A DNA stretch of 64,000 bases, taken from Poseidonia sp. (GTDB lineage Archaea > Thermoplasmatota > Poseidoniia > Poseidoniales > Poseidoniaceae). The DNA lies in contig CBFIDD010000006.1 in the NCBI GenBank assembly GCA_965661285.1, positions 61,887-125,886 of the forward strand, given 5' to 3'. Shown here one piece after another: positions 15,388 through 29,246 of this stretch (its first letter is position 1; each line of letters opens with the position of its first letter). A program made the translations under genes and the position numbers. The notes beneath the pieces are model-generated. The model was not told the origin of the DNA, made no database searches, and saw nothing but the letters and a program-made list of their open reading frames with translations.

Positions 15388-16689
15388 TCAATCAAACTGA
15401 GCCAATGAGGATTGTGAGGGTTTGATCCACTCACGAACGTTGCGCTCCATGTCATCACGAACCGCTTCTGGCACGAAAATCAAACACCGTTCGTGCGGTT
15501 GAGAGAGCGAGCGTATGAGCGCAGAATGCTCCGACGCGTCGCGACCGTCTTCCAGCACAATCCCGCCATTGTAGGGGAGGTAGCCACGCTTTCGAATGGT
15601 GGCTTGTATCAGGTCAAGGTCGGCATCATAACCTTCTGCCTCGAGTGCGTCTCGGATTCGAGGCATGACGACATCACACATCTCCACCGTGAGATGGTCA
15701 ATGCGAAGCGATTTGTGGAAATTTTTCCGAGACAGCAGACGGCTTGCATAGGCCGACAAACGGGAGTCGCCGTGCTGGGCCCAGCCGGGGAGAGCGACCT
15801 TGACGTGAGCGTCGTTGAGCAACACGTATTCATCAGCAGAGAGGTCCTCGTTCAGCAGCATGTGAGCCAACTCCGGTGAAACCTCGAGTTCCCCGTTCTG
15901 AGCCAGAATGCGCGCCCGCTCGAGCATGTTGACCAGATAGGCCTGCGTGAGCATGTTGACCTTGTGAAAATACACCTGCTGATACATGTGGTAGCGTGTG
16001 ACGAGGTAGGCTTCAATGGCAGGAAGACCCCACCGCTTGACGTACATCCGCCCGTCTTCACCCACCCGCAAGGCACGAATAACACGAGCGCTGTCAAATC
16101 CGCCGATTTGTGCGCCGGTGTTGGCTTGGTCTCGAATCATGTAGTCCATGCGGTCAACGTCCAGTTGACTGCTGACAATTTCCTTCATGAAACGAGGAAT
16201 CGGCACACCGTCGTGAACATCATGCCCGTCCATGAGCGCAAACAGACGCCCGAGGCGCTTCTCGCCGAGGGTTTCTCGGACCGCTTGACCGATGGCGGTG
16301 GTTGGCGATTCGAGGATGTCTCGCCCCCACGCTTCGTGGGAGCGAAAGGTGGCGTACACCCGAGGCGTTTCCAGCAGATGCGAGTAAGGCGGATGTCCGA
16401 TGTCGTGGAGAAGCGCTGCCAATTGAACGAGTTCTTCGTCCTCCTTTGACAAGAGACCCGGATGAACCTCTTGGAGGTGTGCGGCCAGGCGGCCGGCCAG
16501 ATGGTAAGCGCCCAGCGAATGTGCGAAGCGATTGTGGGTTGCGGCCGGGAAAACATACTCGCAGGTCGACAATTGTTGAATGGCTCGGAGGCGTTGAAAT
16601 TCAGGCGTATCGATGATGGCTGCATGTGAGGCAGGCACCAAAATGTCCCGGTGGATTTCGTCGCGAATCACGCGGTCCCTGCCGTTCAT
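15388..16689 (-). CDS. HD-domain phosphohydrolase, SAMHD1-like (putative dNTP triphosphohydrolase)
   Basis: IRDEIHRDI, FQRLRAIQQL, HNRFAHSLG, LLHDIGHPPYSH, DVDRMDY, RYHMYQQVYFHK; likely start ATG 16689. Confidence 0.9.
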   Translation of the reverse strand: MNGRDRVIRDEIHRDILVPASHAAIIDTPEFQRLRAIQQLSTCEYVFPAATHNRFAHSLGAYHLAGRLAAHLQEVHPGLLSKEDEELVQLAALLHDIGHPPYSHLLETPRVYATFRSHEAWGRDILESPTTAIGQAVRETLGEKRLGRLFALMDGHDVHDGVPIPRFMKEIVSSQLDVDRMDYMIRDQANTGAQIGGFDSARVIRALRVGEDGRMYVKRWGLPAIEAYLVTRYHMYQQVYFHKVNMLTQAYLVNMLERARILAQNGELEVSPELAHMLLNEDLSADEYVLLNDAHVKVALPGWAQHGDSRLSAYASRLLSRKNFHKSLRIDHLTVEMCDVVMPRIRDALEAEGYDADLDLIQATIRKRGYLPYNGGIVLEDGRDASEHSALIRSLSQPHERCLIFVPEAVRDDMERNVREWIKPSQSSLAQFD

Positions 16690-16787
16690 ATTGCCTTGGG
16701 GGCACCTTGTTTCTTTATAGCCCTTCGCGGATAAATGGGACATCCCGCGTGAACAACGCATAAGCGTGAAGGAGACCAGCGGCAACC

Positions 16788-18539
16788 ATGGCCGACGCCG
16801 TGAAGGGCTTGATGGACAAAATCACCAACGACGACCCCGAAACTCGGGGGCAGCAGTTGTGGGTGATGTTTGCGCTCGCCATGTTTCTGGTCGCCACCCT
16901 CAACTGGTACGCCTATGTGCGAGAACCCGAAGTCATCGACGTCGGCCAGTTGCTCGAATACAAAAACGAGGTTGTCAAGGTTGAAGGCACGCTGATTTCG
17001 TGGGTCGAAGACCCTTACGCCTCGGGCGACGACCGTATTGACGCGATTATCGATGACGGCACCGGCGTGGTGGAATCTCGTTGGTACCGACCCGGTGCGA
17101 TGCCACCCATCGGCACGACCGTGACAGTGATGGGTGATGTGATCGAGTACGATGGACGCATCTGGATACAATCACTGGGCGCAGGGGCGATGGAATGGAA
17201 AGCCTCCGACCTGCCTGAAGTTGAAACCCTCGCCATCGCCGATGTGGCTCAAGACCCTGCTGCCTATGCAGGCGAGACGATTCGGTTGACCGGTTTTATC
17301 AGTAAATCCATCACGCCCGACGCCACCTTTACCTCTGCCTACCTTGGCGACCATCCAAATTACGGAAACTCAGAGCACCAAATGCACCTCATCATCCGTT
17401 CGGCTATCGGTGACTGGGTGGAAGCCACTTCCAAAGTCGAAGTTCAAGGCATTCTGACCTACCAGCAACGCGACCTGCGATGGAGTCTGCAAGTTCAAGG
17501 ACCTGAAATTCTCGTTGACCGGAACCACGTTGTCAATGTGCCACAACTCGACTGGAATGCACAGGCCACCTGGAGCTATCAATCCGGTCAGACGGTCACG
17601 ATGACCGGCGTCTTGACCACGACATCAGAGAACTGGGCGCTTTACGGGCCGACAGGAACGTCCATCTGTGTGCTGCCAACCGAAGCCGACCGTCAAGCCG
17701 ACGCCTCCACCTCCATGCACAACACGCTCCAAACGGTTGAGGGGCGGCTCTTGTGGTCGGAAACCGAGTCGGGTTGGTGCATTGACGCCAACGAAGGCTC
17801 ATCGCCCTCGCTGGTCAACCCTGAAACGCCCATCAGTCTGCTGGCCATGCTCTCTGCCGACCCCGTTGGCATGGTGGCTGACCCTGACGCCACCTACACC
17901 CTCTCGGCCTACGTCAAGTACGCCGTGGAACCTGGAGTTGAGAACGAAGAGGCCTACTTCGTGGATTCCGCTGCTTATTCACCGGGATGGACCACCGTGG
18001 CGGTCACCGTCCCGGGACCGCGCAGCACCTGGCTTGAATCGGGCCAAAACATCATCGCAAACGTCTCGGTTGGTTGGGACGATGAAGACATGCGAATCCG
18101 ACTGACGGTTCACGACTACACGTCGGGCGTCGTCCCCTCGGCGAGAACCTTGTTGTGGGACGATGGCGCAACGCAGTGGAGTTATGCACGGGATCAGAAC
18201 GTTCTCTTGAACGGAAAGGCGGAACGTGTTGACGACCAGTGGCGGCTCGTTCGGGACGGTTCAAACGAATCCGTGGTCTTGAATCTCCAAGGTCAAGCCA
18301 TTGGAGTGGACGAGTACCATTCCAACCAATCCATGACGTGGACAGGGCGCTTGCGTCAGGTGCAAAGCGATGACGGCATGAGTCTTGTTTACACCCTGGA
18401 CCAGGCCGATGTGCTCGACAGCGATGGCGACGGCTTGGGCGACACGCTGGAGGACATCATCGGAACTTCCTCCACCTCTGAAGACACCGACGACGACGGT
18501 GTTTCTGACCGTGAAGAACATGTCAACGGAGAAGCATGA
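16788..18539 (+). CDS. Membrane-anchored protein with ~5 tandem OB-fold-like repeats and C-terminal DxDxDG Ca-binding motifs
   Basis: N-terminal TM; repeats such as YKNEVVKVEGTL...IDDGTG...GTTVTVMG and DPAAYAGETIRLTGFI...KVEVQG; DSDGDGLGD and DTDDDGVSD. Confidence 0.72.
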   Translation: MADAVKGLMDKITNDDPETRGQQLWVMFALAMFLVATLNWYAYVREPEVIDVGQLLEYKNEVVKVEGTLISWVEDPYASGDDRIDAIIDDGTGVVESRWYRPGAMPPIGTTVTVMGDVIEYDGRIWIQSLGAGAMEWKASDLPEVETLAIADVAQDPAAYAGETIRLTGFISKSITPDATFTSAYLGDHPNYGNSEHQMHLIIRSAIGDWVEATSKVEVQGILTYQQRDLRWSLQVQGPEILVDRNHVVNVPQLDWNAQATWSYQSGQTVTMTGVLTTTSENWALYGPTGTSICVLPTEADRQADASTSMHNTLQTVEGRLLWSETESGWCIDANEGSSPSLVNPETPISLLAMLSADPVGMVADPDATYTLSAYVKYAVEPGVENEEAYFVDSAAYSPGWTTVAVTVPGPRSTWLESGQNIIANVSVGWDDEDMRIRLTVHDYTSGVVPSARTLLWDDGATQWSYARDQNVLLNGKAERVDDQWRLVRDGSNESVVLNLQGQAIGVDEYHSNQSMTWTGRLRQVQSDDGMSLVYTLDQADVLDSDGDGLGDTLEDIIGTSSTSEDTDDDGVSDREEHVNGEA

Positions 18540-18548
18540 GGCGATAGC

Positions 18549-20051
18549 GTGCTTGAAGGGTATTTTTTGGACTTGGCGTGGCTCCTTGGCGCCTTGTTTT
18601 TCGGGGTCATGCTCGGTTCACTCACCGGCCTTATCCCCGGTTTCCACGTAAACAACGTGGCGCTCATTCTTCTCGCTCTTTCACCCGCTCTGCTCGATTT
18701 GGGCATCCCGCTTGCATCGGTTGCGGCCATCATCGTCTCGACGGGCACCGTCCATACCTTCCTGAATTACATCCCGTCCGCCCTTATCGGCGCACCCGAC
18801 GGTGACACTGCGTTATCGCTCCTGCCCGGACATCGCATGCTGCTCTCGGGCAACGCCGCACGAGGGGTTGCTTGGTCTGCTCGGGGCTCGCAACTCGGTC
18901 TGTTTCTTTCGTTGCCGTTGATCGTGTTGGCACGTATCGCCTTTGGACCCGAACTCGGTTGGTACGACAACCTACGCTCGGTTCTCCCGTTTGTTCTCCT
19001 CACCATTTCCTTTCTCTTGCTTGCCACGGAAACCACCCGCCTTGACTGGCCGAAATGGCTCCAGAAGATGACGGGCAACAAACTCGGCCGTGATTCACGC
19101 TTTGCAGGATTCCTGGCTGCAACAGCCTTCTTTTTGCTGGCCGGACTCTACGGATGGGGCGTGTTCACCCTCCCGGCTCGTTCCCCCATCGGGATGCCCG
19201 ACGCCAGCCTGCTGCTACCGAGCCTCGCCGGCTTGTTTGGTATCGCCAACCTCTTGGACATCTACGCCACAACTTCGCATCTTCCTCCTCAGCGAGAAAA
19301 CTGGGCTTTGCCACCGGCCCGCCCCCTTGTGGTGCCGTGCTTTTGGTCGAGCGTCGCAGGAGCCTCAATGGGTGTCCTGCCCGGCATGACGGCATCCCAA
19401 GCAACCGTACTGGTGATGGGTGGTCGGAACCTCGCTGCAAAAGCACAAGGAAAGCAGGGGTATGGCATGGATTGGGAAACTCGGCGCCTGACTGAGTTAA
19501 GCGATGATGAATTGCTTGAAATCGCCAAGGCGGAAGCCGAGGAAGGCGTCGAAGGTCCACAGACGAAGCAAGATTTGGAAGTGATTGCTCTCCTCTCAGC
19601 GACCAACACAGCGGTTACGGTCATGGTTCTGGGCTTCCTGTACATCATCAGCCGCTCTCGTTCCGGCGCTACGCTGGCCCTGAAGATGATGTATCCCATC
19701 GAGACATGGTCCTCACTCGAACCCACCTCTGACTTCATTCGGTTGTTGGCGGTCACCCTCGCTGCAGGACTGCTGGCGATGCCCATGATGCGCTACGTGG
19801 GCAGCGGTATGTTGCGCCTTCATGCCGCCATTCCTCTGCAGCAAATGGTGATGGGCGTGATTCTCTTTGTCGTCGCGCTCGTCTGGCTCTCAACCGGCTT
19901 CGTCGGCATCGGCGTTCTCATCGTCGGCACCATCATTGGCCTGCTGCCACCTCGCATCGGCATACGCCGGTCCCACGGGATGGGCATCATCCTCGTACCC
20001 ATCATGATCTACACCTTTGCGCAGAAATTCGACAGCTTTGGATTCATTTGA
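18549..20051 (+). CDS. Archaeal TctA-like (tripartite tricarboxylate transporter family) permease
   Basis: GSLTGLIPGFHVNN, HTFLNYIPS, SLLPGHRMLLSG, LLPSLAGLFG, GVLPG, SRSG, RIGIRRSHGMG; about 12-13 TM helices. Confidence 0.88.
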   Translation: MLEGYFLDLAWLLGALFFGVMLGSLTGLIPGFHVNNVALILLALSPALLDLGIPLASVAAIIVSTGTVHTFLNYIPSALIGAPDGDTALSLLPGHRMLLSGNAARGVAWSARGSQLGLFLSLPLIVLARIAFGPELGWYDNLRSVLPFVLLTISFLLLATETTRLDWPKWLQKMTGNKLGRDSRFAGFLAATAFFLLAGLYGWGVFTLPARSPIGMPDASLLLPSLAGLFGIANLLDIYATTSHLPPQRENWALPPARPLVVPCFWSSVAGASMGVLPGMTASQATVLVMGGRNLAAKAQGKQGYGMDWETRRLTELSDDELLEIAKAEAEEGVEGPQTKQDLEVIALLSATNTAVTVMVLGFLYIISRSRSGATLALKMMYPIETWSSLEPTSDFIRLLAVTLAAGLLAMPMMRYVGSGMLRLHAAIPLQQMVMGVILFVVALVWLSTGFVGIGVLIVGTIIGLLPPRIGIRRSHGMGIILVPIMIYTFAQKFDSFGFI

Positions 20052-20069
20052 AATTTGGACGTGAACGAC

Positions 20070-23000
20070 ATGAAGAAAACCCTGACCGCCACCAGCCTAT
20101 TGCTCGTATTCCTCTTCTCCCTGACCTCGCCGCTGGCCAACGTACTCCACGACCACCAAGAGGCGAGCGATACCTCTGCCCGCTCCACAGCGTGCACGGG
20201 CTATGTTTGCATCAACGAAGTCATTCCAAACCCAAACGGTCGCGACGATGGAACCTACCCGGACGGCGAGTGGTTTGAACTCTACAACAGCGGCCCGGTC
20301 GACGTTGATTTGACGGGATGGAAAGTGACCACCAGCGCCCAAAAATCACTGGATTTTGATTCAGCTACCATCGTGGGCTACCAAGCTGGCAACAGTTCCA
20401 CCTGGACCATCAGTCCCGGTGAATACGTGGTGATTGCTCGAAACGGAGACAGCAACTTCTACATGACGAACACGGGGTTGAGTATGACCTTGGTGGACGG
20501 CAGCAACAACAACCTCCACCAAGCGACATGGGGACAGGTCTTGTCGGGAAAAAGCTACGAACAAGACCCCAGCAGTGCCACGGCCAACTGGATTCAAACC
20601 AACAACCCAACCCCCGGTCAAATCAACACCGCAGCAGCGACCAACAACCTGATTCCCGGCGACCTCATCATTACCGAAGTGATGGCCAATTCATGGCCGT
20701 CCTACGATAACGAATCGTGGCCCGGTGGCGAGTGGGTTGAAATCCTCAACACCGGGTCGAGCGATATTGACCTGACGGGGTATAGCATTGAGGATGCGGC
20801 AGGAAACGTCCTCCCGTTCAACGCCTCGCATTTGGTCAACGCCTCTCAAACCATGCTCATCGCACCCGGAGAACACCGCGCGGTCGCCGTTAACGCCACC
20901 AGCGGATACGGCGTGCTCAACAACGGTGTGGAGAGCCTCACCCTCAAGTGGCCCAATGGCAGTCGCTCGCAAGAGATTTCATGGTCGTCGACCGTGCAGG
21001 GCTTTTCCCTCATCGTATCCACCCAGTCCAGCGCTCCGTGGACGTATGCGCCCTACCCGACACCCGAAGGGATGAATCCACTGCCGCTCGAATTGATGCC
21101 GCGCCAGGTCGGCGACATTCAGATGACCGAGATACTCCCCAACGCCACCAACGACGGGGCCACCTTCCCCGACGGCGAGTGGATCGAACTCCACAACACC
21201 GGAAGCGGTACCGTTGACCTCATGGGATGGAGCATCATGGACGGCATGGGCAACTTGACCTTCCTCGACCCCGGCACCCTCGTGTTCAACACCACGCAAG
21301 GTTCGACCACCATCGATGCCGATGGCCGTCGGTTGGTGCAGTTCACCAGCCACACCGAGTTGTGGGACAATTACAACCACATCTTCCTTCGAGACGTGAC
21401 CGAACAGGTTGTGGATACCGCCGCCTACACCACGGATTACGGCGAAGACATGGCCCTGATTCGCACAAACAACCCAGCCGACCCGTGGACGCCTGCTGCA
21501 TGGAAGACGCCGGGTCAGCCCGAGCCAGGCACCATGCCATCCTCCACCACCGTACGCTTCTCTGAAATCCTGCCCGATGCTGTGGGCTCAGACAGTCAGA
21601 CATGGCCGAACGGCGAATGGATTGAGGTGTACAACTACGGCGCCACCGACGTCGATTTGGCGGGCTGGAAGCTCCAAGCCGCCTCCCGTTCATTGACCCT
21701 CCACGAATTCAACATGCCGTTGCAGGAAACCACCAACCTACGTGCAGGCGAAGTGGCCCTCATCGCCTTGAACGGAACCAGCAGTTTCTATCTCAAACAC
21801 ACCTCTTCGGATTCCATCGGTTTGGTTGACGCCTCCGGTTCAACCGTGGACACCATCGCATGGTCAGACACGGTTGAGGGCGAGTCCCTCGTCGCTCCCA
21901 ACAGCACGCATGCAGGCGTTGGCCCCAACGCAAGCTACGCTACTGGCAACTGGTTGTTGTCCGCTTGGGCCACGCCCGGCGAGGTCAATCCTGTTTGGCC
22001 CGCCTACACCGGCTCGACTGAACTCGCCATCACCGAGGTGTTGCCGTACTGTAACGACGATTCCATCGAGCCGACCGAAGACTGGGTCGAGGTTCATAAC
22101 CAAGGCTCAACACCACTGAACATCAGCCGTTGGTCGGTCATGACCGCTGACGGCGACCGACGATTCATGCGAATGGACAGTTTGTGGGCGGAAGAAAACC
22201 AAACCGCGAAACTCGTCCTGCAACCCGACGAGCGGGCCGTCTTTACGATGGAAGAATTCATCCTCACCGGCTTGGGCGATGCCTTCGAACTTCTCCACCC
22301 CGACGGCGACATTGTCGACAGCGCTGCATGGGTCGTCATCACCGATTGTCAAACCCTGATGCCGGGCGATCAAACGAGCGATGATTGGCAACACACCCTC
22401 TGGCCCACGCCAGGCCAAGCCGAGCCCGACCCCTCAAGTTTCGCCACGAAGGATGACGTCCGGTTCACGCGGCTCATGCCGTCCGGTTCGACCGACATCT
22501 CAAGCGACATGGAATTCGTTGAGGTCGCAAATCAGGGCGACAAGCTGGCCGTTCTCAACGGCTGGACGCTGCGCACAACCACCGGTGCCAACAGCATGTA
22601 CAACGCGACCATCACCGACCTGATGATACAACCCCGCACCTCCGTCCTGCTGGCCAACGATGCGGATGCACTCGGCGTCTACGAAGACGGAAGCGTGGTG
22701 GACATTGACAGCGCCCTTGACCGGACGTTTTACTTCCCCAACTCCGGTGCTGCACTCCAACTTCTTGACAGCAGCGGTGCTGAGGTTGACACACTGGTTT
22801 ACGGCAACGGGCCCGTATCGGTCTCGGGATGGAGTGGCATCGCGCTCGTTGAGCCCATTTCCAACCTCGACAACCTGATTTATCTTCGAGGCAGTGGTTG
22901 CGGAGAAACACCCGACACCAACACGGTACAGGATTGGCACGAGCAGTGGAGCCGCCTGGGCGGCAGCACCTTCTGCTTTGATACGACCATTGCAGCCAAC

Positions 23001-24947
23001 GGCGCCATCACCCCGTTGATCGGCCCGGAGAACGGTCTGGTCGACCTGTTGGCATGGATAGATGGGGCCACAACCTCGCTTCACGTTCACATGTACCAAC
23101 TTCAAGAGGTGCACCTGGTCGAAGCCATGATCAGCGCTCAGAACCGTGGCGTGGACGTGAACGTTGTCCTCGACTACGGCGACAACTGGTGGAGTGAATT
23201 CGCTCTTGATACGCAGCGCGGCATGGCGACAAGCCTGCTCGCGGCCGGCGTGGATGTGAAGTGGTTTGGCGATGCGGGTGAAAACCCCTACGCCTACATC
23301 CACAGCAAGGTCGGCGTTCGGGACAACGAAAGTGTGTGGATCGGTTCGGGCAATTGGAAATCGTCCTCGCATCCAGCACCCGGCGAGGCTGGAAATCGCG
23401 ATTGGGGTGTGCTCGTTGCGGATGAAGGCTTGGCCACGATGGTGCTCAATCACCTCGTCTTTGATGAAAACGTTGCTCGGACCCACGTCACGCCGGTCCA
23501 AGCCTCGGACGCACCCAGCGGTTGGAGCATGCCCGCCTCCGGTGCCATCGTGGGCGAGACGGCCACCGCCATCGAAGGCGACTTTGAGGCCAACCTGCTG
23601 GTCTGCCCCGACAACTGCATCGATGAAATCGTCGATGTTTTGGACGGTGCGGAAACTGAAATTCTACTGTCCCTCCAGTACCTCGATACGGATTGGTCTT
23701 GGGGATGGGGAGACAACCCCATACTCGAAGCGTTGGAGGATGCTGCTGCGCGAGACGTCCGTCTTCGCTTGATGTTGAACGGCGCCTACCTCGACGAGGA
23801 CATCCAAAGCGCAGTGGACCTGTTCAATGAGGAATGGAACTTCACCAAGGGCTACGACACATCTGCCATCGTGATGAGCAGCGACGATACGGTCACGAAG
23901 TTGCACAACAAGGGCATCATCGTCGACGGTGAACACGTGCTCGTCTCTTCCATCAACTGGGGAGATTCAGCACTTGTCCGCAACCGAGAGATGGGGCTGC
24001 TCATTTCCAGTCCAACCGTGGCGCAGGTCTACATGGATTCGTGGCACGACGATTGGCAACGTGTTGACAACACCACCGACACCGACCAAGACCGGCTTCT
24101 CGATGCGTGGGAGGTGTTACACGGCCTGAACAGAACCCAACGCAGTGTGGTGGGCGAGGCAACGAGCGATGAATCACAGGTGGACATTGACGACGATGGA
24201 CTCACCAACTTTGCCGAGCAACTCCACGGCGGCGACCCAAACATGGCCGATACGGATGGCGACTGCATCCCCGACGGTTTGGAAGTCGCATGGGCGCAAT
24301 CCAGCGCCCTGAACAGCGGCGTGGAGACCATCTCGCCGAGCGCCGCCCTCTCCATGTGGGACGCTGACCAAGACGGTCAGAACGATAGCGAGGTGCTCGG
24401 TTGTGATTTGGGAGGTATTGACATCGTGCCAGTCGACAACACCACACCTGAATCGACCGATGACGATGACGATGGCGTTCCCAACGAGGACGACCAGTGC
24501 CCCGACACACCAGCCAATGTAGCGACAGACAGCAGCGGCTGTTCCGCCGACCAGCGAGCTGCCCTCGTGGAAGACAGTTCGGAGAGCACCGGCGGAGACT
24601 CTGCACAGTCGTTCTTCCTCATCCTCATGTTGTTCGCCCTGGCCCTGGCGGGCGGAACGTATGTGGTTCTGCGAGGAAAGCAGAACGAAGCAGCAGAGGT
24701 CAAGGACGCCATCAGTGAAACCGCTTTCGCAGAAGTCTCAACCACGCCGGTGAGCAACGAACACTGGCAGCAACCCGTTCTGGACGGAACGGGAAGCACC
24801 GGCGTGACGCCTGAAATGTTGGCACGTGTTCCCGGTTGGACCGCTGATATGGTTGAACAATACCTCCTCCAAGGTTGGACGATTGACCAGTTGGCCACCT
24901 ACTATCAGGAACAGGTGGCCCAGCACGAGAAGCAAGAGCAACATTGA
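20070..24947 (+). CDS. Secreted, C-terminally anchored protein with 6 lamin-tail domains and 2 PLD (HKD) domains (nuclease or phospholipase)
   Basis: Signal peptide from ATG 20070; six I(N/T/S)E.....EW(V/I)E(L/V)xN-type LTD starts; HSKVGVRD (23301) and HNKGIIVD (23904); DxDxDG/TSP3-like repeats; TM FFLILMLFALALAGGTYVVL. Confidence 0.88.
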   Translation: MKKTLTATSLLLVFLFSLTSPLANVLHDHQEASDTSARSTACTGYVCINEVIPNPNGRDDGTYPDGEWFELYNSGPVDVDLTGWKVTTSAQKSLDFDSATIVGYQAGNSSTWTISPGEYVVIARNGDSNFYMTNTGLSMTLVDGSNNNLHQATWGQVLSGKSYEQDPSSATANWIQTNNPTPGQINTAAATNNLIPGDLIITEVMANSWPSYDNESWPGGEWVEILNTGSSDIDLTGYSIEDAAGNVLPFNASHLVNASQTMLIAPGEHRAVAVNATSGYGVLNNGVESLTLKWPNGSRSQEISWSSTVQGFSLIVSTQSSAPWTYAPYPTPEGMNPLPLELMPRQVGDIQMTEILPNATNDGATFPDGEWIELHNTGSGTVDLMGWSIMDGMGNLTFLDPGTLVFNTTQGSTTIDADGRRLVQFTSHTELWDNYNHIFLRDVTEQVVDTAAYTTDYGEDMALIRTNNPADPWTPAAWKTPGQPEPGTMPSSTTVRFSEILPDAVGSDSQTWPNGEWIEVYNYGATDVDLAGWKLQAASRSLTLHEFNMPLQETTNLRAGEVALIALNGTSSFYLKHTSSDSIGLVDASGSTVDTIAWSDTVEGESLVAPNSTHAGVGPNASYATGNWLLSAWATPGEVNPVWPAYTGSTELAITEVLPYCNDDSIEPTEDWVEVHNQGSTPLNISRWSVMTADGDRRFMRMDSLWAEENQTAKLVLQPDERAVFTMEEFILTGLGDAFELLHPDGDIVDSAAWVVITDCQTLMPGDQTSDDWQHTLWPTPGQAEPDPSSFATKDDVRFTRLMPSGSTDISSDMEFVEVANQGDKLAVLNGWTLRTTTGANSMYNATITDLMIQPRTSVLLANDADALGVYEDGSVVDIDSALDRTFYFPNSGAALQLLDSSGAEVDTLVYGNGPVSVSGWSGIALVEPISNLDNLIYLRGSGCGETPDTNTVQDWHEQWSRLGGSTFCFDTTIAANGAITPLIGPENGLVDLLAWIDGATTSLHVHMYQLQEVHLVEAMISAQNRGVDVNVVLDYGDNWWSEFALDTQRGMATSLLAAGVDVKWFGDAGENPYAYIHSKVGVRDNESVWIGSGNWKSSSHPAPGEAGNRDWGVLVADEGLATMVLNHLVFDENVARTHVTPVQASDAPSGWSMPASGAIVGETATAIEGDFEANLLVCPDNCIDEIVDVLDGAETEILLSLQYLDTDWSWGWGDNPILEALEDAAARDVRLRLMLNGAYLDEDIQSAVDLFNEEWNFTKGYDTSAIVMSSDDTVTKLHNKGIIVDGEHVLVSSINWGDSALVRNREMGLLISSPTVAQVYMDSWHDDWQRVDNTTDTDQDRLLDAWEVLHGLNRTQRSVVGEATSDESQVDIDDDGLTNFAEQLHGGDPNMADTDGDCIPDGLEVAWAQSSALNSGVETISPSAALSMWDADQDGQNDSEVLGCDLGGIDIVPVDNTTPESTDDDDDGVPNEDDQCPDTPANVATDSSGCSADQRAALVEDSSESTGGDSAQSFFLILMLFALALAGGTYVVLRGKQNEAAEVKDAISETAFAEVSTTPVSNEHWQQPVLDGTGSTGVTPEMLARVPGWTADMVEQYLLQGWTIDQLATYYQEQVAQHEKQEQH

Positions 24948-24979
24948 AACGGGACCTTGTGCAGAGAAATTCGATACCC

Positions 24980-25744
24980 ATGGAGATTCGAAGCAGTAAC
25001 CCTGTCCTCAATCAAACATTCTGGAGCAACCTGACCGGCAACGACCGGATGACCATCGACGGCAGCCTCCGCAAGATCGGCTTCTTGCTTGCCGTTACGG
25101 TGGTGAGTGCATTCGTGTCTGCAGTACTCTGCATGAACGCGATCAACAACGGCAACGGGGGACTCTATATTGGTGGCTTTATGCTCCTTGGCTTTGTTGG
25201 AGGCGGCATCATTGCCCTGGTGGTCTTCATGACCCGCCCCAAAAATCCAGCGGCTCTCATGAGCCTCTATGCCATTTTGGAAGGCATGGCCATTGGCGCC
25301 ATGTCGTTAATGTTGGAGCTCACAGCCTACAAGGGCATTGCTCTGCAAGCCGTCTTCGGCACCATGGCCATCACCGCCACGATGTACGTGATGTATGCCT
25401 CTCGAATCATCCGACCGACCCCAGCGTTCAACAAGGTCGTCGGTGGATTGGTCATCAGTATCTTCTTTCTGTACCTGACCTCGTTTATCCTCCAAATCTT
25501 CACAGGGTATGATGTTCCGTTCCTCCACTCCTCAGGGCCGATTGGCATTGGACTGACCGCCTTCATTTTGGTTGTTGCCGCGCTCACCCTCATCAGCGAT
25601 TTTGGCTTCATCGAATCTGGCTCACGCTACGGTGCCCCGAAGAACATGGAATGGTATGCTGCTTTTGGGATCTTGATTTCTTTGATTTGGATTTACATCG
25701 AAACGCTCCGCCTGCTCGCCAAACTCCAAGCCTTCAGGGAATGA
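24980..25744 (+). CDS. Bax inhibitor-1/YccA family membrane protein
   Basis: MEIRSSNPVL, MTIDG, YAILEG, DFGFIE, GAPKNMEWYAAFG..LIWIYIETLRLL. Confidence 0.9.
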   Translation: MEIRSSNPVLNQTFWSNLTGNDRMTIDGSLRKIGFLLAVTVVSAFVSAVLCMNAINNGNGGLYIGGFMLLGFVGGGIIALVVFMTRPKNPAALMSLYAILEGMAIGAMSLMLELTAYKGIALQAVFGTMAITATMYVMYASRIIRPTPAFNKVVGGLVISIFFLYLTSFILQIFTGYDVPFLHSSGPIGIGLTAFILVVAALTLISDFGFIESGSRYGAPKNMEWYAAFGILISLIWIYIETLRLLAKLQAFRE

Positions 25745-25750
25745 GGCGTC

Positions 25751-26698
25751 ATGTCGCGGTCCATCCCTACGATTGACTTTCGACTGGCCGTGTCCGACTC
25801 GCCAGCAGAACGAGCGATGTTTGTCGACCATGTTGGTGATGCGCTCAAAGACATTGGCTTCTTCGCCCTCACCCACCATGGGATTCCTCGTGAACTCATC
25901 GAGGAAACCTATGCACGATGCGATGCGTTTTTCGGCCTTGACGAAGCCACCAAGTCCACCTATCTGCGGCCAGACATCGGCCACCAACGCGGCTACACCG
26001 CCTTTGGTGTAGAGCATGCAAAAGATAACCCTGCACCCGACCTCAAAGAGTTCTGGCAAACCGGACGACCTTATCCTGAAGACGGGACCGTGCCAACTTA
26101 CCCTAAGAACATCTGGCCCACCGCACATGTGGAAGGGTTTCAGGCCACCACTGAAGCGCTGTTCACAAGCATGGAAACATTGGCCCAACACCTGTTGTCT
26201 GCGTGTTCACGCTATCTCGGAAAACCAGAGGATTGGCTCTCCAACATGTCAAACGAAGGCAACACCATCATGCGCATGATCCACTACCCGCCACTGGGTG
26301 AAAACACGCCAGAGGGTGCCGTACGCTCCGCTGCACACGAAGATATCAATTTCATCACGTTGCTCGTAACCGCCACCGCTGATGGGCTGGAAGTGATGGA
26401 CCATGACGGGACATGGATCAAAGTCAAAGGCGACCAAGACGCCATCATCGTCGATTCGGGCGATATGCTCCAGAACTTAACCAACGGCTTGTTCAAATCA
26501 ACCACGCACCGTGTGGTGAATCCAAAGGACAGCAACACGCGCCGGTATTCGATGCCCATGTTCGTTCATCCACGAAACGAAATTGACTTGACACCGCATC
26601 CGGATTTTGTCGCCATGACCGGAGGTCTTCCAACCTACGCATCCATCAATGCCGGCGATTATCTCCATCAGCGCTTGAAGGAAATCGGATTGATTTGA
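25751..26698 (+). CDS. 2-oxoglutarate/Fe(II)-dependent dioxygenase, isopenicillin N synthase family
   Basis: IPTIDF, GFFALTHHGI, DLKEFWQ, HEDIN (HxD), HRVVNP, RYSMP (RxS). Confidence 0.93.
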   Translation: MSRSIPTIDFRLAVSDSPAERAMFVDHVGDALKDIGFFALTHHGIPRELIEETYARCDAFFGLDEATKSTYLRPDIGHQRGYTAFGVEHAKDNPAPDLKEFWQTGRPYPEDGTVPTYPKNIWPTAHVEGFQATTEALFTSMETLAQHLLSACSRYLGKPEDWLSNMSNEGNTIMRMIHYPPLGENTPEGAVRSAAHEDINFITLLVTATADGLEVMDHDGTWIKVKGDQDAIIVDSGDMLQNLTNGLFKSTTHRVVNPKDSNTRRYSMPMFVHPRNEIDLTPHPDFVAMTGGLPTYASINAGDYLHQRLKEIGLI

Positions 26699-26702
26699 GG
26701 CG

Positions 26703-28040
26703 TTGCAGGTGGACTTTGAAGAACTCCTTGAAGCCGTGGAAAATGGCCGGTCTCAAAACAAAAGCGACTTGGAAGCGTTCGTCGCCATGGTGGCCGATGG
26801 AAGTGTGTCCAAACCCGACGCCACACGATGGCTCAAAGCCGTTCACACGTACGGATGTACGGTCGAGGACACGGTTGTGTTGACCAACGCGATGATCGAT
26901 TCTGGAGCCAGACTTCAGTGGTCGCCCGGTGCCCCGGTGGTGGATAAGCACAGCACGGGAGGTGTTGGCGACAAAATGTCGCTCATCCTCGCTCCTGCGC
27001 TGGCAGCAGCCGGATGTCGCGTGCCCATGCTGGCAGGTCGCGGCCTTGGCCACACCGGCGGAACCATCGATAAACTCGAATCCATTCCTGGATTCAACTG
27101 TGCACTTTCGCCCACAGAGATGGAGAGAGCCGTTGAAGAGGTGGGGTGCTGCATCGCCGTTCAGAACGAGGCGATCGCACCGGCAGACGGTGTGCTCTAT
27201 GCCCTCCGTGATGTCACAGATACCATTGACAGCGTGCCGCTCATCACCGCATCCATCGTTTCAAAGAAAGCCGCCGAGGGTTTGGACGCCCTCGTTCTGG
27301 ATGTAAAAACCGGTACAGCGGCGTTCATGAAGACCCGCGAAGAGGCGAGAACGTTGGCCACGTCGATGGTCAGGACCGCCGAGGGACTCGGTGTCCGCAC
27401 CGTCGCACAGATCACGTCGATGGACGAGCCCATCGGAACCCACGTCGGTAACGCCTTGGAAGTCATTGGAAGCATCATGGTGCTCCAAGGCAAAGGCTCT
27501 CCCGATACACGGGAACTCGTCGTCATGCAAGGCGCAGCCTTGCTTTCAATGACCATGAAGGATGTTGACCTCGATGAAGGGAGACGCCGAATCGAGGCCG
27601 TGCTCAACAACGGAAAAGCACTGGATGTGTTCCGAGACATGTGTGTCAAACAAGGCGTTGAGACGACCGTCGCTTCGATCTTGACTACGCATCCTGAAAA
27701 GGTTCTCAAAACCGCCCCGCATCAAACCGCTGTCCTCGCAAAGCAGGACGGTTTTGTATCGACGTACGACGCCATGAAGATGGCCACGCTCGCACGTAAA
27801 CACGGTGCTGGTCGATTTGTGCTTGAGGATGAAATCGACCCGCTGGTTGGCTTCGTCATTCAAGCCCCGAAAGGCACGGACGTGAAGAAAAACCAGCCAC
27901 TATTCGCGTTCCACCACACGAAGGAACTCACCGCTGAGGAGTTTCATGAGCTGAAATCGCTGGTCGAGGTTGATGAAAACAAACCGGACCTCCCGCATCG
28001 TTTGATGGAATTGATTGACTCCACCTCAACGAAGGCGTGA
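26703..28040 (+). CDS. deoA: Thymidine/pyrimidine-nucleoside phosphorylase (bacterial type)
   Basis: DKHSTGGVGDK, GRGLGHTGGTIDKLESIPGF, APAD..LYALRDVT, SIVSKK, DVKTG.AAFM, VGNALE. Confidence 0.9.
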   Translation: MQVDFEELLEAVENGRSQNKSDLEAFVAMVADGSVSKPDATRWLKAVHTYGCTVEDTVVLTNAMIDSGARLQWSPGAPVVDKHSTGGVGDKMSLILAPALAAAGCRVPMLAGRGLGHTGGTIDKLESIPGFNCALSPTEMERAVEEVGCCIAVQNEAIAPADGVLYALRDVTDTIDSVPLITASIVSKKAAEGLDALVLDVKTGTAAFMKTREEARTLATSMVRTAEGLGVRTVAQITSMDEPIGTHVGNALEVIGSIMVLQGKGSPDTRELVVMQGAALLSMTMKDVDLDEGRRRIEAVLNNGKALDVFRDMCVKQGVETTVASILTTHPEKVLKTAPHQTAVLAKQDGFVSTYDAMKMATLARKHGAGRFVLEDEIDPLVGFVIQAPKGTDVKKNQPLFAFHHTKELTAEEFHELKSLVEVDENKPDLPHRLMELIDSTSTKA

Positions 28041-28066
28041 TAAAGGGGATGCTTGTCGCCCACCTT

Positions 28067-28142
28067 GCCGATTTAGCTTAGCTGGTGGAGCGTGGGACTG
28101 TTAATCCCAAGGTCGTGGGTTCGAGCCCCACAATCGGCGCCA
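28067..28142 (+). tRNA. tRNA-Asn(GTT), CCA encoded
   Basis: GCCGATT TAGCTTAGCTGGTGGAGCG TGGGA CT GTT AA TCCCA AGGTC GTGGG TTCGAGC CCCAC AATCGGC G CCA. Confidence 0.96.
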
Positions 28143-28286
28143 ATCTCCCTTCATGCCCCGTTTTCATCGATTGAACGCCTTGGGTTCGAGGTTTCCAATT
28201 CACACGACGCCGTGGACAAGAGGGCGTTGTTTAACCAATCCCGAGAAATGTTGATGAGGAATGATGTTCAACGCCCATCCGAAAGC

Positions 28287-29246
28287 ATGGCTGGCCGTTG
28301 TCGTACCCACTTCGCTGTGGTCCTGATGGTGCTGATGATGTCACTGGGAAGCGGTTGTCTCGGTGAGGCTCCTTCTGCATCAACGGCCGCAGATGCTGAG
28401 TCGCTTGAGGCGCTGGCCAACCCGTGCACCCTACCGTCCGACGAACAGACCCAAGTCATGACCACCATCACGGTCAACGGGGTTGAGCGTTTTTTCCGCC
28501 TCACTGTTCCACCTTCGGATGAAGGGACGAAACTTCCCATCGTTTTGGCTTTCCACGGCGGAGGTGATGCAGAAGAGGACTTCCCACAACAAAACGAGTT
28601 TGACCAACTGGCCTATCAAGAGCAATTCATCATGGCCTATGCCATCGCAGAAGGGGATCGAACGCCAGCCGAAGGCGATTGGTTTCTGAACACTGCAGCG
28701 ACCTCTCGAGACGACAACGATTTCGCCCAGTCCGTGGTCACAGAACTTTCGTCTGCGTATTGCATCGATCACGAGCGCATTTACGCCATCGGATATTCCC
28801 TTGGTTCCATGTTCACCTACGAGGTCGCCTGCCAGCTGAATCATCAATTCGCTGCGGTGGCATCGTTCGCTGGAACCATGCCTGTTGAACCCGAGAGTTG
28901 TGATCTCAGCGGCAACATCGCTGTCCTCCATGTCCATGGAAAACTCGACTACATCATCGATTACGACGACGATTGGGATTGGAAAGATGGTGAACATGAA
29001 GGGGTAGGAACGATGAGCAACATACCCGGCATGATTGACGCTTGGGCCGACAGGGCAAATTGCGGCAGCGATGACGTTGCTTCGGATTTCTTTTTGGAAC
29101 ACATCACCCACTCGGCTTGTCAGGGTGATACACGTATTGAGCACTACGGACTGGAATACCATGAGCATACATGGCCTGATGAGGTCGACGGAACACCGAC
29201 ATACGAATTGATGTGGGAATTCCTCAGCGACTTCACCAACGCTTGA
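28287..29246 (+). CDS. Lipoprotein alpha/beta-hydrolase, PHB-depolymerase/LpqP-like esterase
   Basis: Lipobox-like SLGSGC; PIVLAFHGGG, IDHERIYAIGYSLGS (GxSxG), HVHGKLD, HTWP. The track start overlaps tRNA-Asn, so the start was moved (28248 also possible). Confidence 0.85.
   Translation: MAGRCRTHFAVVLMVLMMSLGSGCLGEAPSASTAADAESLEALANPCTLPSDEQTQVMTTITVNGVERFFRLTVPPSDEGTKLPIVLAFHGGGDAEEDFPQQNEFDQLAYQEQFIMAYAIAEGDRTPAEGDWFLNTAATSRDDNDFAQSVVTELSSAYCIDHERIYAIGYSLGSMFTYEVACQLNHQFAAVASFAGTMPVEPESCDLSGNIAVLHVHGKLDYIIDYDDDWDWKDGEHEGVGTMSNIPGMIDAWADRANCGSDDVASDFFLEHITHSACQGDTRIEHYGLEYHEHTWPDEVDGTPTYELMWEFLSDFTNA

What the first reader, a model, noticed from the sequence alone, without database searches (positions are those of the whole stretch)
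16788..24947. Candidate ComEC-independent archaeal DNA uptake machine: OB-fold anchor + orphan TctA + lamin-tail/PLD enzyme
Seen: three co-oriented genes separated by only 9 and 18 bp. They encode (i) a membrane-anchored protein with about 5 OB-fold-like repeats, (ii) a TctA-like permease with no TctB/TctC partner in the window, and (iii) a surface-anchored 6x lamin-tail + 2x HKD enzyme. Known: bacterial ComEC combines an OB fold, a membrane channel and a nuclease domain, often with a lamin-tail domain, and PLD-superfamily members include nucleases (Nuc, PLD3/4). Inference: the same functional parts (DNA binding, channel, nuclease, LTD) are supplied here by three unrelated proteins, suggesting uptake of extracellular DNA as nutrient or for transformation in a marine archaeon. 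I also recall a TctA-like gene being implicated in natural transformation of a methanogen; that recollection needs checking.
Basis: partly seen in the sequence, partly recalled or inferred. Interest (0 to 1): 0.82.

Follow-up and report, generated by a model that had tools for sequence, protein, structure and literature searches.

The report
Archaeal DNA-harvesting gene cluster, Marine Group II
This ocean archaeon carries a conserved gene cluster with a membrane-anchored chain of DNA-binding-type folds, a TctA-like membrane permease, a surface-tethered nuclease-type enzyme and a thymidine-degrading enzyme, and its first two genes resemble a pair that methanogens need to take up DNA, so it probably captures and imports dissolved DNA.

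Summary
Three co-oriented genes, 9 and 18 bp apart, encode:
- a single-helix membrane anchor with five OB-like modules;
- a TctA/DUF112 permease, with no TctB, TctC or ComEC found in the 93%-complete genome;
- a surface protein with six lamin-tail domains and two intact HKD motifs.

Fonseca et al. 2023 (PMC10133366) showed that an adjacent single-helix OB-fold gene and TctA-like gene are both essential for natural transformation in Methanococcus maripaludis.

New here:
- The trio is syntenic in 10 of 10 loci from three families of the order.
- The PLD domain is present in 63 of 71 order genomes. It appears to be lost together with TctA in 6 of the 7 PLD-lacking genomes that were tested.
- The PLD profile matches Nuc, Zucchini and NucT nucleases far better than lipid enzymes.
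- A bona fide thymidine phosphorylase follows the cluster in 9 of 9 assessable loci.

Outside Poseidoniales only the OB–TctA pair recurs.

Best reading: capture, cleavage, import and salvage of extracellular DNA. No biochemistry supports this yet. I could not compare directly with the Methanococcus sequences.

This scan had already flagged the same cluster in three other Marine Group II genomes. I rate it a new variant of a known kind.

The parts
15388..16689 (-). Divergent neighbour: HD-domain phosphohydrolase, dGTPase/dNTP-triphosphohydrolase-like. Its likely start is the ATG at 16689, not the TTG at 16785.
   Evidence: PF01966 HD (2.6e-14) plus PF19276. NCBIfam dGTP_triPase hits are below cut-off. 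It is divergently adjacent in L020, L022 and L023 and within about 5 kb in L018 and L019. The start is inferred.
16690..16787 (.). 98-bp divergent intergenic region with an AT-rich TTTATA element at 16714-16719, a possible shared archaeal TATA box.
   Evidence: Read directly from the sequence. The promoter role is inferred and was not tested.
16788..18539 (+). Membrane-anchored multi-OB protein (583 aa). The TM helix is at 16857-16919. The five beta modules are at 16923-17222, 17223-17525, 17526-17822, 17823-18137 and 18138-18422. An acidic DxDxDG tail follows to 18536.
   Evidence: AF2 model, Foldseek, internal repeats, hydrophobic scan. hhalign against the TM + 2xOB family gives probability 99.4%, E 7e-22. 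Orthologues were found in 39 of 41 relatives.
18549..20051 (+). TctA/DUF112-like permease (500 aa, roughly 11 hydrophobic segments) with the motif TGLIPGFHVNN near the N-terminus.
   Evidence: PF01970, 143.7 bits. Hydrophobic scan. It is the only copy in the genome. The family is present in 135 of 151 genomes of the phylum.
20055..24947 (+). Surface-tethered 6x lamin-tail + 2x HKD PLD-fold enzyme. The likely start is ATG 20070.
   Evidence: Pfam. Orthologues are syntenic in 10 of 10 loci. The PLD domain is present in 63 of 71 genomes of the order.
20205..22802 (+). Six lamin-tail domains: 20205-20531, 20664-20984, 21117-21428, 21552-21863, 22023-22331 and 22458-22802.
   Evidence: PF00932, six stretches. 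Boundaries come from a self-built repeat HMM.
22896..24089 (+). Two-lobed PLD-fold catalytic region. HKD motif 1 is at 23301-23324 and HKD motif 2 at 23904-23927.
   Evidence: AF2 pLDDT 87.2, pTM 0.89. Foldseek. Profile against PDB: Nuc 5.7e-15, Zucchini 1.1e-13, NucT 2.5e-13. Motifs.
24594..24677 (+). C-terminal transmembrane anchor of the LTD-PLD protein. It is preceded by acidic DxDxDG (thrombospondin-type-3-like) repeats and followed by a tail of about 90 aa.
   Evidence: Hydrophobic scan and sequence. NCBIfam gives weak hits to anchor and thrombospondin-3-like models.
24944..25744 (+). Bax-inhibitor-1-like membrane protein. It is inserted in this family only.
   Evidence: PF12811, 9.1e-62. 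It is present in L022 and L023 and absent from the f2 and f3 loci.
25751..26698 (+). 2OG-Fe(II) oxygenase. It is inserted in this family only.
   Evidence: PF14226 plus PF03171. Present in L022 and L023 only.
26703..28040 (+). Thymidine / pyrimidine-nucleoside phosphorylase, the conserved last gene of the cluster.
   Evidence: NF004490 at 440 bits (cut-off 269) and TIGR02644 at 426 bits (cut-off 409). It follows the LTD-PLD gene in 9 of 9 assessable loci.
28092..29246 (+). Alpha/beta-hydrolase at the end of the co-directional gene run. It is not conserved with the cluster.
   Evidence: Pfam esterase families. No tblastn match in the 10 related loci.

Best explanation
The cluster is a module for harvesting extracellular DNA.

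Inferred mechanism:
- A type-I-anchored surface enzyme holds DNA, or holds itself at the envelope, through six lamin-tail domains. It cuts DNA with a Nuc-type two-HKD PLD domain.
- A type-II-anchored chain of five OB folds binds the resulting single strands or oligonucleotides next to the membrane.
- The OB chain hands them to the TctA-like permease, which moves them, or their breakdown products, into the cell.
- Inside the cell, deoxynucleosides are split by the co-transcribed thymidine phosphorylase.

The OB-TctA core is the Poseidoniales version of the gene pair that Methanococcus maripaludis needs for natural transformation. The nuclease and the phosphorylase are lineage-specific additions. 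They point to nutrient (P, N, nucleoside) salvage as the main role, with genetic transformation as a possible by-product.

Shown here: domain architectures, folds, synteny and co-occurrence. Inferred: DNA binding, nuclease activity, the transported substrate and the order of steps.
For: (1) Literature. In M. maripaludis, adjacent MMJJ_13020 (OB-fold, one TM helix) and MMJJ_13030 (TctA-like, 11 TM) are each essential for transformation, and deletions were complemented. The TctA-like homologue is also essential in Methanoculleus thermophilus. Archaea lack TctB, TctC and ComEC (PMC10133366, passages and Discussion).

(2) Same layout here. A single-helix OB anchor lies 9 bp upstream of the only TctA-like gene.

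(3) Homology of the OB anchor. Its TM + first two OB modules match a widespread family of about 210 aa (TM + 2 OB) at hhalign probability 99.4%, E 7e-22. Members of that family carry PF01336, the nucleic-acid-binding OB fold. A member sits immediately upstream of TctA on the same strand in 19 of 30 loci from the phylum and in 43 of 80 loci from public genomes.

(4) Trio synteny. All three genes are present in 10 of 10 loci from three families of the order. The PLD domain is present in 63 of 71 order genomes. It lies on the same contig and strand, 4.3-7.2 kb from the TctA start, in 26 of the 28 genomes for which both places were listed.

(5) Co-absence. Eight genomes lack the PLD domain. TctA was searched in 7 of them and was not found in 6. 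Two of those also lack the OB protein.

(6) PLD profile against PDB. Nuc endonuclease 5.7e-15, Zucchini 1.1e-13 and NucT 2.5e-13, compared with PssA 1e-5 and PLD1 4e-4. Both HKD motifs are intact. Structural neighbours include the ssDNA exonucleases PLD3 and PLD4.

(7) LTDs accompany surface nucleases that act on eDNA. ExeM is one (PMC6085458, passages). The archaeal Hvo_1477 is another; its deletion impairs growth on DNA (PMC3929857, abstract and passages).

(8) Thymidine phosphorylase. It scores above the curated cut-offs and follows the nuclease gene in 9 of 9 assessable loci.

(9) Complex prediction of TctA with OB residues 1-250 gave weak support. The score was 0.46 and the best of 3 controls was 0.00. 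That mark was reached by 58 of 80 solved complexes and 2 of 110 mismatched pairs, but at 0.60 or under by only 7 of those 80 and by both mismatches that passed. The runs agree in at least 0% of contacts, and the partner's pLDDT is at least 71.
Against: - No biochemical or expression data exist for any of these proteins.
- The fold alone does not separate nuclease from lipid PLDs. The top Foldseek hit, 7e0m, is titled phospholipase D, and PLD1/2, F13 and PssA also match. NCBIfam also gives weak cardiolipin-synthase hits.
- P0001 itself has no Pfam OB hit.
- The OB-TctA pair is nearly universal in the phylum (135 of 151 genomes). Elsewhere it sits among housekeeping genes such as CDC48, PEP synthase and PolD. 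That pattern would also fit a core envelope or transport role.
- In Methanoperedens, Methanocellales, Methanosarcina, Methanolobus and Archaeoglobi loci, and in several Thermoplasmata loci, TctA-like has no adjacent OB gene.
- The nuclease partner was found next to TctA in 0 of 110 loci outside the order. One locus, L114, has a PLD-like ORF 7 kb away.
- G166 has the LTD-PLD gene but gave no TctA match.
- I could not align P0001 and P0002 directly with the Methanococcus proteins.
- No prepilin peptidase (PF01478) was found in this genome, although four type-IV-filament ATPase matches were. Pili are required for transformation in Methanococcus.
Confidence: 0.55

Rival explanations
1. It is a true natural-competence machine. 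The surface nuclease makes single strands, the OB chain guides long ssDNA to the TctA-like channel, and the imported strand is recombined. Nutrition is secondary.
For: The only genetics on this gene pair concern transformation (PMC10133366). The OB array resembles ssDNA and dsDNA binders. The genome has four type-IV-filament ATPase matches. ComEC was found in 0 of 151 genomes of the phylum, so another importer would be needed.
Against: A thymidine phosphorylase is conserved in the cluster, and an HD phosphohydrolase is a frequent neighbour. Both point to degradation. No recombination or DprA-like gene lies in the gene run. Prepilin peptidase was not found. Whether a TctA-fold secondary-transporter-like protein can pass a polymer is unknown.
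Confidence: 0.2
2. The cluster is not about DNA. The PLD enzyme acts on phospholipids or on phosphodiester-linked surface or algal polymers, the OB modules bind oligosaccharide or another ligand in the manner of a tethered solute-binding protein, and TctA imports a small anion. The Methanococcus transformation defect would then be indirect.
For: The canonical TctA family transports carboxylates (as stated in PMC10133366). The PLD fold matches lipid enzymes structurally. OB folds also bind oligosaccharides, which is established knowledge of the fold. The pair is near-universal and sits in housekeeping neighbourhoods.
Against: The sequence profile prefers nuclease-type PLDs by 8-10 orders of magnitude. 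Relatives of the OB anchor match nucleic-acid-binding OB families. No TctB or TctC was found. The conserved partner is a deoxynucleoside-catabolic enzyme. Two independent organisms show the transformation phenotype.
Confidence: 0.17
3. The adjacency is inherited gene order without a functional link between the OB-TctA pair and the LTD-PLD and phosphorylase genes.
For: The link is confined to one order. Other genes have been inserted between members: a 951-aa ORF in one family, and BaxI plus an oxygenase in another.
Against: The order is kept across three families at 29-37% identity for the OB protein and 32-52% for the nuclease protein, despite those insertions. Gaps are 3-18 bp here. The genes are missing together in 6 of 7 tested genomes.
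Confidence: 0.08

Closest known systems
Methanococcus maripaludis MMJJ_13020 (OB-fold, single TM) + MMJJ_13030 (TctA-like), natural-transformation genes (Fonseca et al. 2023, PMC10133366)
   Same: An OB-fold protein with one transmembrane helix is encoded directly upstream of a TctA-like permease of about 11 helices. No TctB, TctC or ComEC is present in the genome.
   Different: The OB protein here has five modules, compared with two in the roughly 210-aa relatives. The pair is extended by a surface LTD-PLD enzyme and a thymidine phosphorylase, whereas in Methanococcus a separate thermonuclease gene elsewhere was hit in the screen. Direct sequence comparison was not possible, and no genetics exist for Marine Group II.
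Haloferax volcanii Hvo_1477 (surface lipoprotein with thermonuclease + lamin-tail domain; PMC3929857)
   Same: It is an archaeal, cell-surface-bound enzyme that combines a lamin-tail domain with a nuclease-type catalytic domain. Hvo_1477 is needed for growth on extracellular DNA.
   Different: The catalytic domain here is a two-HKD PLD fold, not staphylococcal nuclease. There are six LTDs instead of one. The protein is 1630 aa against 327 aa and is anchored by a C-terminal helix rather than a lipobox.
ExeM (Shewanella) / Xds (Vibrio) cell-associated extracellular nucleases (PMC6085458)
   Same: The parts list is the same (LTD, OB folds, a nuclease domain and a C-terminal hydrophobic anchor), with a role in eDNA degradation and nutrient acquisition.
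   Different: In ExeM all parts are in one protein and the nuclease is of the EEP type. Here OB and LTD-nuclease are separate proteins, no EEP domain is present, and a permease gene lies between them.
Bacterial ComEC
   Same: The functional parts are analogous: an extracytoplasmic OB fold, a polytopic membrane protein and a nuclease. Relatives of the OB anchor give sub-threshold DUF4131 (ComEC N-terminal) hits.
   Different: The channel domain PF03772 was found in 0 of 151 genomes of the phylum. There is no metallo-beta-lactamase domain. The parts are on three proteins, and the membrane protein belongs to the TctA family.
Nuc (Salmonella plasmid pKM101) / NucT (Helicobacter pylori) / Zucchini, the PLD-superfamily nucleases
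   Same: These are the best sequence-profile matches of the catalytic region. The HxKxxxxD motif is present.
   Different: Those enzymes are single-HKD proteins that dimerise. Here two HKD lobes are fused in one chain and embedded in a giant surface protein. Curated NucT cut-offs are not reached.
TctABC tripartite tricarboxylate transporter
   Same: The TctA membrane subunit family (PF01970).
   Different: No TctB or TctC is present. The partner is an OB-fold anchor, and the context is nucleic-acid related.

Membership tests
TctA / DUF112 family (PF01970) | Match to the family model above the gathering score | tested here: met
   143.7 bits against a cut-off of 28.9, in two stretches covering profile positions 1-276 and the C-terminal part.
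Canonical tripartite tricarboxylate transporter (TctABC) | Cognate TctB small membrane subunit and TctC solute-binding protein | tested here: not met
   PF07331 and PF03401 gave 0 matches in the own genome, which is 93% complete. Controls rang in 3 and 4 of the 14 named genomes respectively.
Archaeal OB + TctA-like transformation pair (Fonseca 2023) | A single-TM OB-fold protein encoded directly upstream of a TctA-like permease | tested here: met
   9-bp gap on the same strand. One N-terminal helix plus OB-like modules. hhalign probability 99.4% to the TM + 2xOB family, which carries PF01336.
Archaeal OB + TctA-like transformation pair (Fonseca 2023) | Sequence homology to MMJJ_13020 / MMJJ_13030 themselves | not testable with these tools
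   No Methanococcus sequence could be reached. The one genome-contig scan returned Thermoplasmatota, Halobacteriota, DPANN and Archaeoglobi loci only. Searches with relatives returned no named Methanococcus protein.
Archaeal OB + TctA-like transformation pair (Fonseca 2023) | Requirement for DNA uptake or transformation | not testable with these tools
   Needs genetics or uptake assays, and Marine Group II is uncultured.
PLD superfamily | Two HxKxxxxD motifs in a two-lobed fold | tested here: met
   HSKVGVRD at residue 1083 and HNKGIIVD at 1284. PLDc_2 matched twice. AF2 pLDDT 87, with Foldseek E down to 4e-22 against PLD folds.
Nuc/NucT-type PLD nucleases | Closest relationship to characterised nuclease members; nuclease activity | tested here: inconclusive
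   The profile prefers Nuc (5.7e-15), Zucchini (1.1e-13) and NucT (2.5e-13) over PssA (1e-5) and PLD1 (4e-4). NucT NCBIfam scores (35-39 bits) are far below the cut-offs of 225-351. Activity was not tested.
Lamin-tail domain proteins (PF00932) | Match to the LTD model | tested here: met
   Six stretches, E 4.8e-78, 259 bits against a cut-off of 34.3. Boundaries.
ComEC | Competence channel domain PF03772 | tested here: not met
   No match in the three proteins, in the own genome or in 151 genomes of the phylum. The control rang in 10 bacterial genomes.
ComEC | N-terminal OB domain DUF4131 (PF13567) | tested here: inconclusive
   P0001 has no hit. Of 10 distant relatives scanned, 3 had E < 0.001 (P0089 2.2e-5, P0125 1.5e-4, P0113 3.6e-4), all below the 31.6-bit cut-off. 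Precomputed Pfam lists PF13567 for P0089 and P0281.
ExeM/Xds extracellular nucleases | EEP (endonuclease/exonuclease/phosphatase) catalytic domain | tested here: not met
   No EEP family appears among the Pfam hits of the three proteins.
Thymidine / pyrimidine-nucleoside phosphorylase | Score above the curated equivalog or subfamily cut-off | tested here: met
   NF004490 at 440 bits (cut-off 269) and TIGR02644 at 426 bits (cut-off 409). The AMP-phosphorylase model scored 191 bits against a cut-off of 535, so it is not met.

The most novel reading that the evidence does not exclude
The TctA-like permease with its tethered OB-fold chain is the long-sought archaeal translocon for DNA or oligonucleotides, a functional counterpart of ComEC built on a secondary-transporter fold. 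In Marine Group II it is hard-wired to a surface nuclease and to deoxynucleoside catabolism. That would make these very abundant surface-ocean archaea direct consumers of dissolved DNA and a sink in the marine phosphorus cycle.
Probability: 0.35. Interest if true: 0.85.

Novelty: new variant of a known kind. Interest (0 to 1): 0.62.

Why it matters
How archaea move DNA across the membrane is unknown. The only genetic lead is the OB + TctA-like pair of Methanococcus.

The Poseidoniales cluster adds independent, comparative support that this pair handles nucleic acid. It is fused into one conserved gene run with a nuclease-type surface enzyme and a deoxynucleoside-degrading enzyme, and the genes are missing together where they are missing.

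It also supplies soluble, expressible domains (the OB ectodomain and the PLD core) on which the hypothesis can be tested.

It further suggests that Marine Group II archaea, which are uncultured and among the most abundant planktonic archaea, use dissolved DNA as a nutrient.

In the held library I found no paper that links Poseidoniales to TctA, PLD or lamin-tail genes (search listings only).

Tried and rejected
(1) Expression. The look-up of sequencing runs (kind rna) listed no RNA holder, only 6 runs of unknown kind from 3 studies kept as contigs. I did not lay reads, so nothing can be said about expression.

(2) Reaching the Methanococcus proteins.
- The genome-contig scan with a TctA alignment kept its best 80 loci, none from Methanococcales.
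- The search for homologous proteins with P0002 was swamped by close Poseidoniales relatives.
- With the TM + 2xOB alignment it returned only 5 proteins, and with P0089 only 4.
- The listing of cluster members named only one relative, a 'Methanospirareceae' MAG protein annotated as OB-fold nucleic-acid-binding.

(3) The ESM Atlas look-ups gave only generic 'PLD-like' and 'OB-fold' clusters, mostly from Thermoplasmatota. I treat these as leads only.

(4) PDB by sequence. There is no solved TctA relative. The TM + 2xOB profile gave only weak STN1 and ExoVII OB hits (E 0.007-0.95).

(5) The 314-317-aa genes upstream of TctA in six Thermoplasmata loci were considered as divergent OB proteins. They were rejected because they read as PP-loop (GMP-synthase-type) enzymes.

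(6) The 951-aa ORF between TctA and the nuclease gene in one family is unrelated to the LTD-PLD protein (BLASTP E 0.48). It has only a weak CD36 hit, and its role is unknown.

(8) An anti-correlation with ComEC cannot be assessed, because ComEC was found in none of the 151 genomes.

(9) Correction. An earlier count said 45/80 for OB upstream of TctA. A recount gives 43 of 80. Six of the 37 loci without a match have too little upstream sequence to judge.

Full report
OBSERVATION. The first gap is 9 bp. The second is 3 bp from a TTG, or 18 bp from the ATG at 20070. The ATG opens a typical MKK + hydrophobic signal peptide and is the likelier start.

Pfam gives TctA (PF01970, 143.7 bits, cut-off 28.9) for gene 2. 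For gene 3 it gives six lamin-tail stretches (E 4.8e-78) and two PLDc_2 stretches. Gene 1 has no family hit.

A hydrophobicity scan shows one N-terminal helix in gene 1 and about eleven hydrophobic segments in gene 2. In gene 3 it shows a signal-like N-terminus plus a C-terminal helix at residues 1514-1541. Both HxKxxxxD motifs are intact, at 1083 and 1284.

An AlphaFold2 model of gene 1, built on 14 orthologues, has mean pLDDT 74.5. It shows a helix at 17-44 followed by five beta-rich modules. Foldseek matches it to multi-OB DNA binders: HIN-200 with dsDNA (E 5e-11), RPA, CST, POT1, TEBP and LEF-3. TM-scores are low, as expected for beads on a string. Profile comparison of the modules shows a duplicated two-module unit: module 2 against 4 at probability 98.9%, and module 3 against 5 at 98.4%.

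WHAT THE ORGANISM IS. Close homologues of the permease are named Candidatus Poseidoniales or Poseidoniaceae by their sources. The window therefore comes from a Marine Group II archaeon, with a genome of 1.98 Mb in 8 contigs that is 93% complete.

THE RECOLLECTION. Fonseca et al. 2023 (PMC10133366; I read passages and the Discussion) found transposon hits in MMJJ_13020 and the adjacent MMJJ_13030.
- MMJJ_13030 is TctA-like with 11 helices.
- In-frame deletions of either gene abolished natural transformation, and complementation rescued it.
- Deleting the TctA-like homologue of Methanoculleus thermophilus also abolished transformation.
- The authors note that archaea lack TctB, TctC and ComEC, and they propose the TctA-like protein as the DNA transporter.
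- A thermonuclease gene was also hit in the screen.

A search for the two locus tags and 'TctA-like protein' found only this paper, its preprint and one unrelated mention.

IS THIS THE SAME PAIR? Three lines bear on this.
- The layout is identical.
- In the own genome there is one TctA and no TctC, TctB or ComEC channel domain. The ComEC domain was found in 0 of 151 genomes of the phylum, while the control rang in 10 bacteria.
- A profile of 14 orthologues of gene 1, searched against 1.84 billion representatives, gave 151 hits. Beyond the Poseidoniales proteins and fragments these include proteins of about 210-260 aa with an N-terminal helix and two OB folds.

Of 10 such proteins scanned, all have some hit to PF01336 (nucleic-acid-binding OB fold) or its relatives. 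Three have sub-threshold hits with E < 0.001 to DUF4131, the N-terminal OB region of ComEC.

Profile-profile comparison of the two families gives probability 99.4% and E 7e-22 over 200 columns, covering the helix and the first two OB modules.

In 30 TctA loci drawn from across the phylum, a member of this OB family lies immediately upstream on the same strand in 19. In 80 loci from public genomes it does so in 43. Six of the remaining 37 loci have too little upstream sequence to judge.

The pair is absent as a pair in the Methanoperedens, Methanocellales, Methanosarcina, Methanolobus and Archaeoglobi loci, and in several Thermoplasmata loci. There the upstream gene is something else, for example a PP-loop enzyme. 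This agrees with Fonseca's remark that no clear OB homologue was found in Methanoculleus.

I could not obtain the Methanococcus sequences. Membership therefore rests on family, architecture and gene order, not on a direct alignment.

THE THIRD GENE AND THE WIDER CLUSTER. tblastn of the three proteins against 10 loci from three families of the order finds all three in the same order and orientation in 10 of 10. In five loci of one family, an extra 951-aa ORF of unknown function sits between the permease and the nuclease gene, and the nuclease protein has only two lamin-tail domains.

A model of the PLD region finds it in 63 of 71 genomes of the order: family f1 34/34, f2 1/1 and f3 27/35. For the 28 genomes in which both the TctA place and the PLD place are listed, the two lie on the same contig and strand, 4.3-7.2 kb apart, in 26. 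In the other two the TctA gene is at a contig end.

Eight genomes had no PLD match. TctA was searched in seven of them and was not found in six, which belong to three genera. In the seventh the TctA gene abuts a contig end. Two of the six were also searched with the OB protein and lack it.

One genome, G166, goes the other way: it has the nuclease gene but gave no TctA match. It is in 130 contigs, so this is unresolved.

Outside the order, none of 110 TctA loci has an adjacent LTD-PLD gene. There the pair is a two-gene unit among CDC48, DUF2240, PEP synthase or PolD genes.

Downstream of the nuclease gene, a thymidine/pyrimidine-nucleoside phosphorylase follows in 9 of 9 loci that extend far enough. 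It scores 440 bits on NF004490 (cut-off 269) and 426 bits on TIGR02644 (cut-off 409). In this window and its family, a Bax-inhibitor-like gene and a 2OG-Fe(II) oxygenase are inserted before it.

In the window, seven genes from 16788 to 29246 run in one direction with gaps of at most 51 bp. An HD-domain, dGTPase-like phosphohydrolase is a divergent neighbour in two families and lies within 5 kb in a third.

WHAT KIND OF PLD? The catalytic region folds confidently (pLDDT 87.2, pTM 0.89) as a two-lobed PLD. Foldseek's best matches are a 'phospholipase D' entry (7e0m, E 4e-22) and then the ssDNA exonucleases PLD3 and PLD4. PLD1/2, vaccinia F13 and PssA also match. The fold therefore does not decide the substrate.

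Sequence is more telling. A profile of 11 orthologues against PDB sequences ranks the hits as follows:
- Nuc endonuclease, 5.7e-15
- Zucchini/MitoPLD, 1.1e-13
- NucT, 2.5e-13
- PssA, 1e-5
- PLD1, 4e-4

NCBIfam's best hits are the DISARM PLD protein DrmC and NucT, all below cut-off, with weaker cardiolipin-synthase hits. I read this as a probable nuclease that has not been demonstrated.

Lamin-tail domains accompany cell-bound nucleases that act on extracellular DNA. ExeM of Shewanella combines LTD, OB region, EEP nuclease and a C-terminal hydrophobic anchor (PMC6085458, passages). Hvo_1477 of Haloferax volcanii combines a thermonuclease with a lamin-tail domain, and its deletion impairs growth on DNA (PMC3929857, abstract and passages).

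DO THE OB ANCHOR AND THE PERMEASE TOUCH? A complex prediction of the permease with residues 1-250 of the anchor gave weak support.
- The median score was 0.46 and the best of three controls was 0.00.
- That mark was reached by 58 of 80 solved complexes and 2 of 110 mismatched pairs.
- At 0.60 or under it was reached by only 7 of those 80, and by both mismatches that passed.
- The runs agree in at least 0% of contacts, and the partner's pLDDT is at least 71.

This neither establishes nor excludes a complex.

MECHANISM AND ODDS. The best-supported reading (0.55) is a capture, cut, import and salvage line for extracellular DNA, as set out under Best explanation.
- Pure competence (0.20) differs mainly in the fate of the imported strand.
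- A function unrelated to DNA (0.17) is kept alive by three things: the lipid-type structural neighbours, the carboxylate history of the TctA family, and the near-universal, housekeeping-like distribution of the pair (135 of 151 genomes).
- Mere inherited synteny (0.08) is unlikely given the co-absence pattern.

OTHER CONTEXT. The genome has four matches to the type-IV-filament ATPase family but no match to the prepilin-peptidase family. Pili are needed for transformation in Methanococcus, so this point stays open.

NOVELTY. The core pair is in print (2023) as a genetic finding without mechanism. The Poseidoniales extension with a tethered PLD-type nuclease and thymidine phosphorylase did not turn up in the held library. 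The searches were read as listings only, and subscription-only papers and supplements are not covered.

Within this scan the same cluster had already been noted in three other Marine Group II genomes (e1-4495376, e1-4595137, e1-4840606), and OB-TctA pairs had been noted in other archaea. I had already seen the thymidine phosphorylase link before reading those notes. They agree with what I found here but are not independent evidence. My verdict is a new variant of a known kind, of good interest.

Noticed in passing
window 46921-55213 (- strand): A low-GC island (43-48% GC against 55-59% around it) holds a 2130-aa ORF with a UvrD-like helicase/P-loop region and an overlapping 635-aa ORF with no family hit. 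It looks like a horizontally acquired element, possibly a defence gene pair.
   Followed up: partly
window 18423-18536 and 24090-24590: Both the OB anchor (C-terminus) and the LTD-PLD protein (before its membrane helix) carry acidic DxDxDG repeats of the thrombospondin-type-3 kind. The same short motif matches other large surface ORFs in related genomes (matches to residues 537-581). It is a possible shared calcium-dependent docking element.
   Followed up: no
L015:11200-14055 (and the equivalent gap in L016, L017, L021, L024): In one family of the order a 951-aa ORF is inserted between the permease and the nuclease gene, and the nuclease protein there has two lamin-tail domains instead of six. 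The ORF has only a weak CD36-family hit and no similarity to the LTD-PLD protein.
   Followed up: partly
L083, L085, L086, L089, L091, L094, L096: Some Thermoplasmatota have OB anchors of 395-467 aa upstream of TctA, intermediate between the two-module and five-module forms. Convergent 930-1000-aa surface-type ORFs lie downstream, one with PKD domains. The number of OB modules evidently varies by lineage.
   Followed up: no
L064:2232-5810 (- strand): The CDC48-type AAA ATPase next to the OB-TctA pair in one Thermoplasmatales MAG carries an intein with a LAGLIDADG endonuclease.
   Followed up: no
window 10836-12716 and 12941-14152: A 626-aa CARDB-domain surface protein and a 403-aa ORF of no known family lie upstream of the cluster. 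Weak homologues recur near it in several related loci.
   Followed up: no
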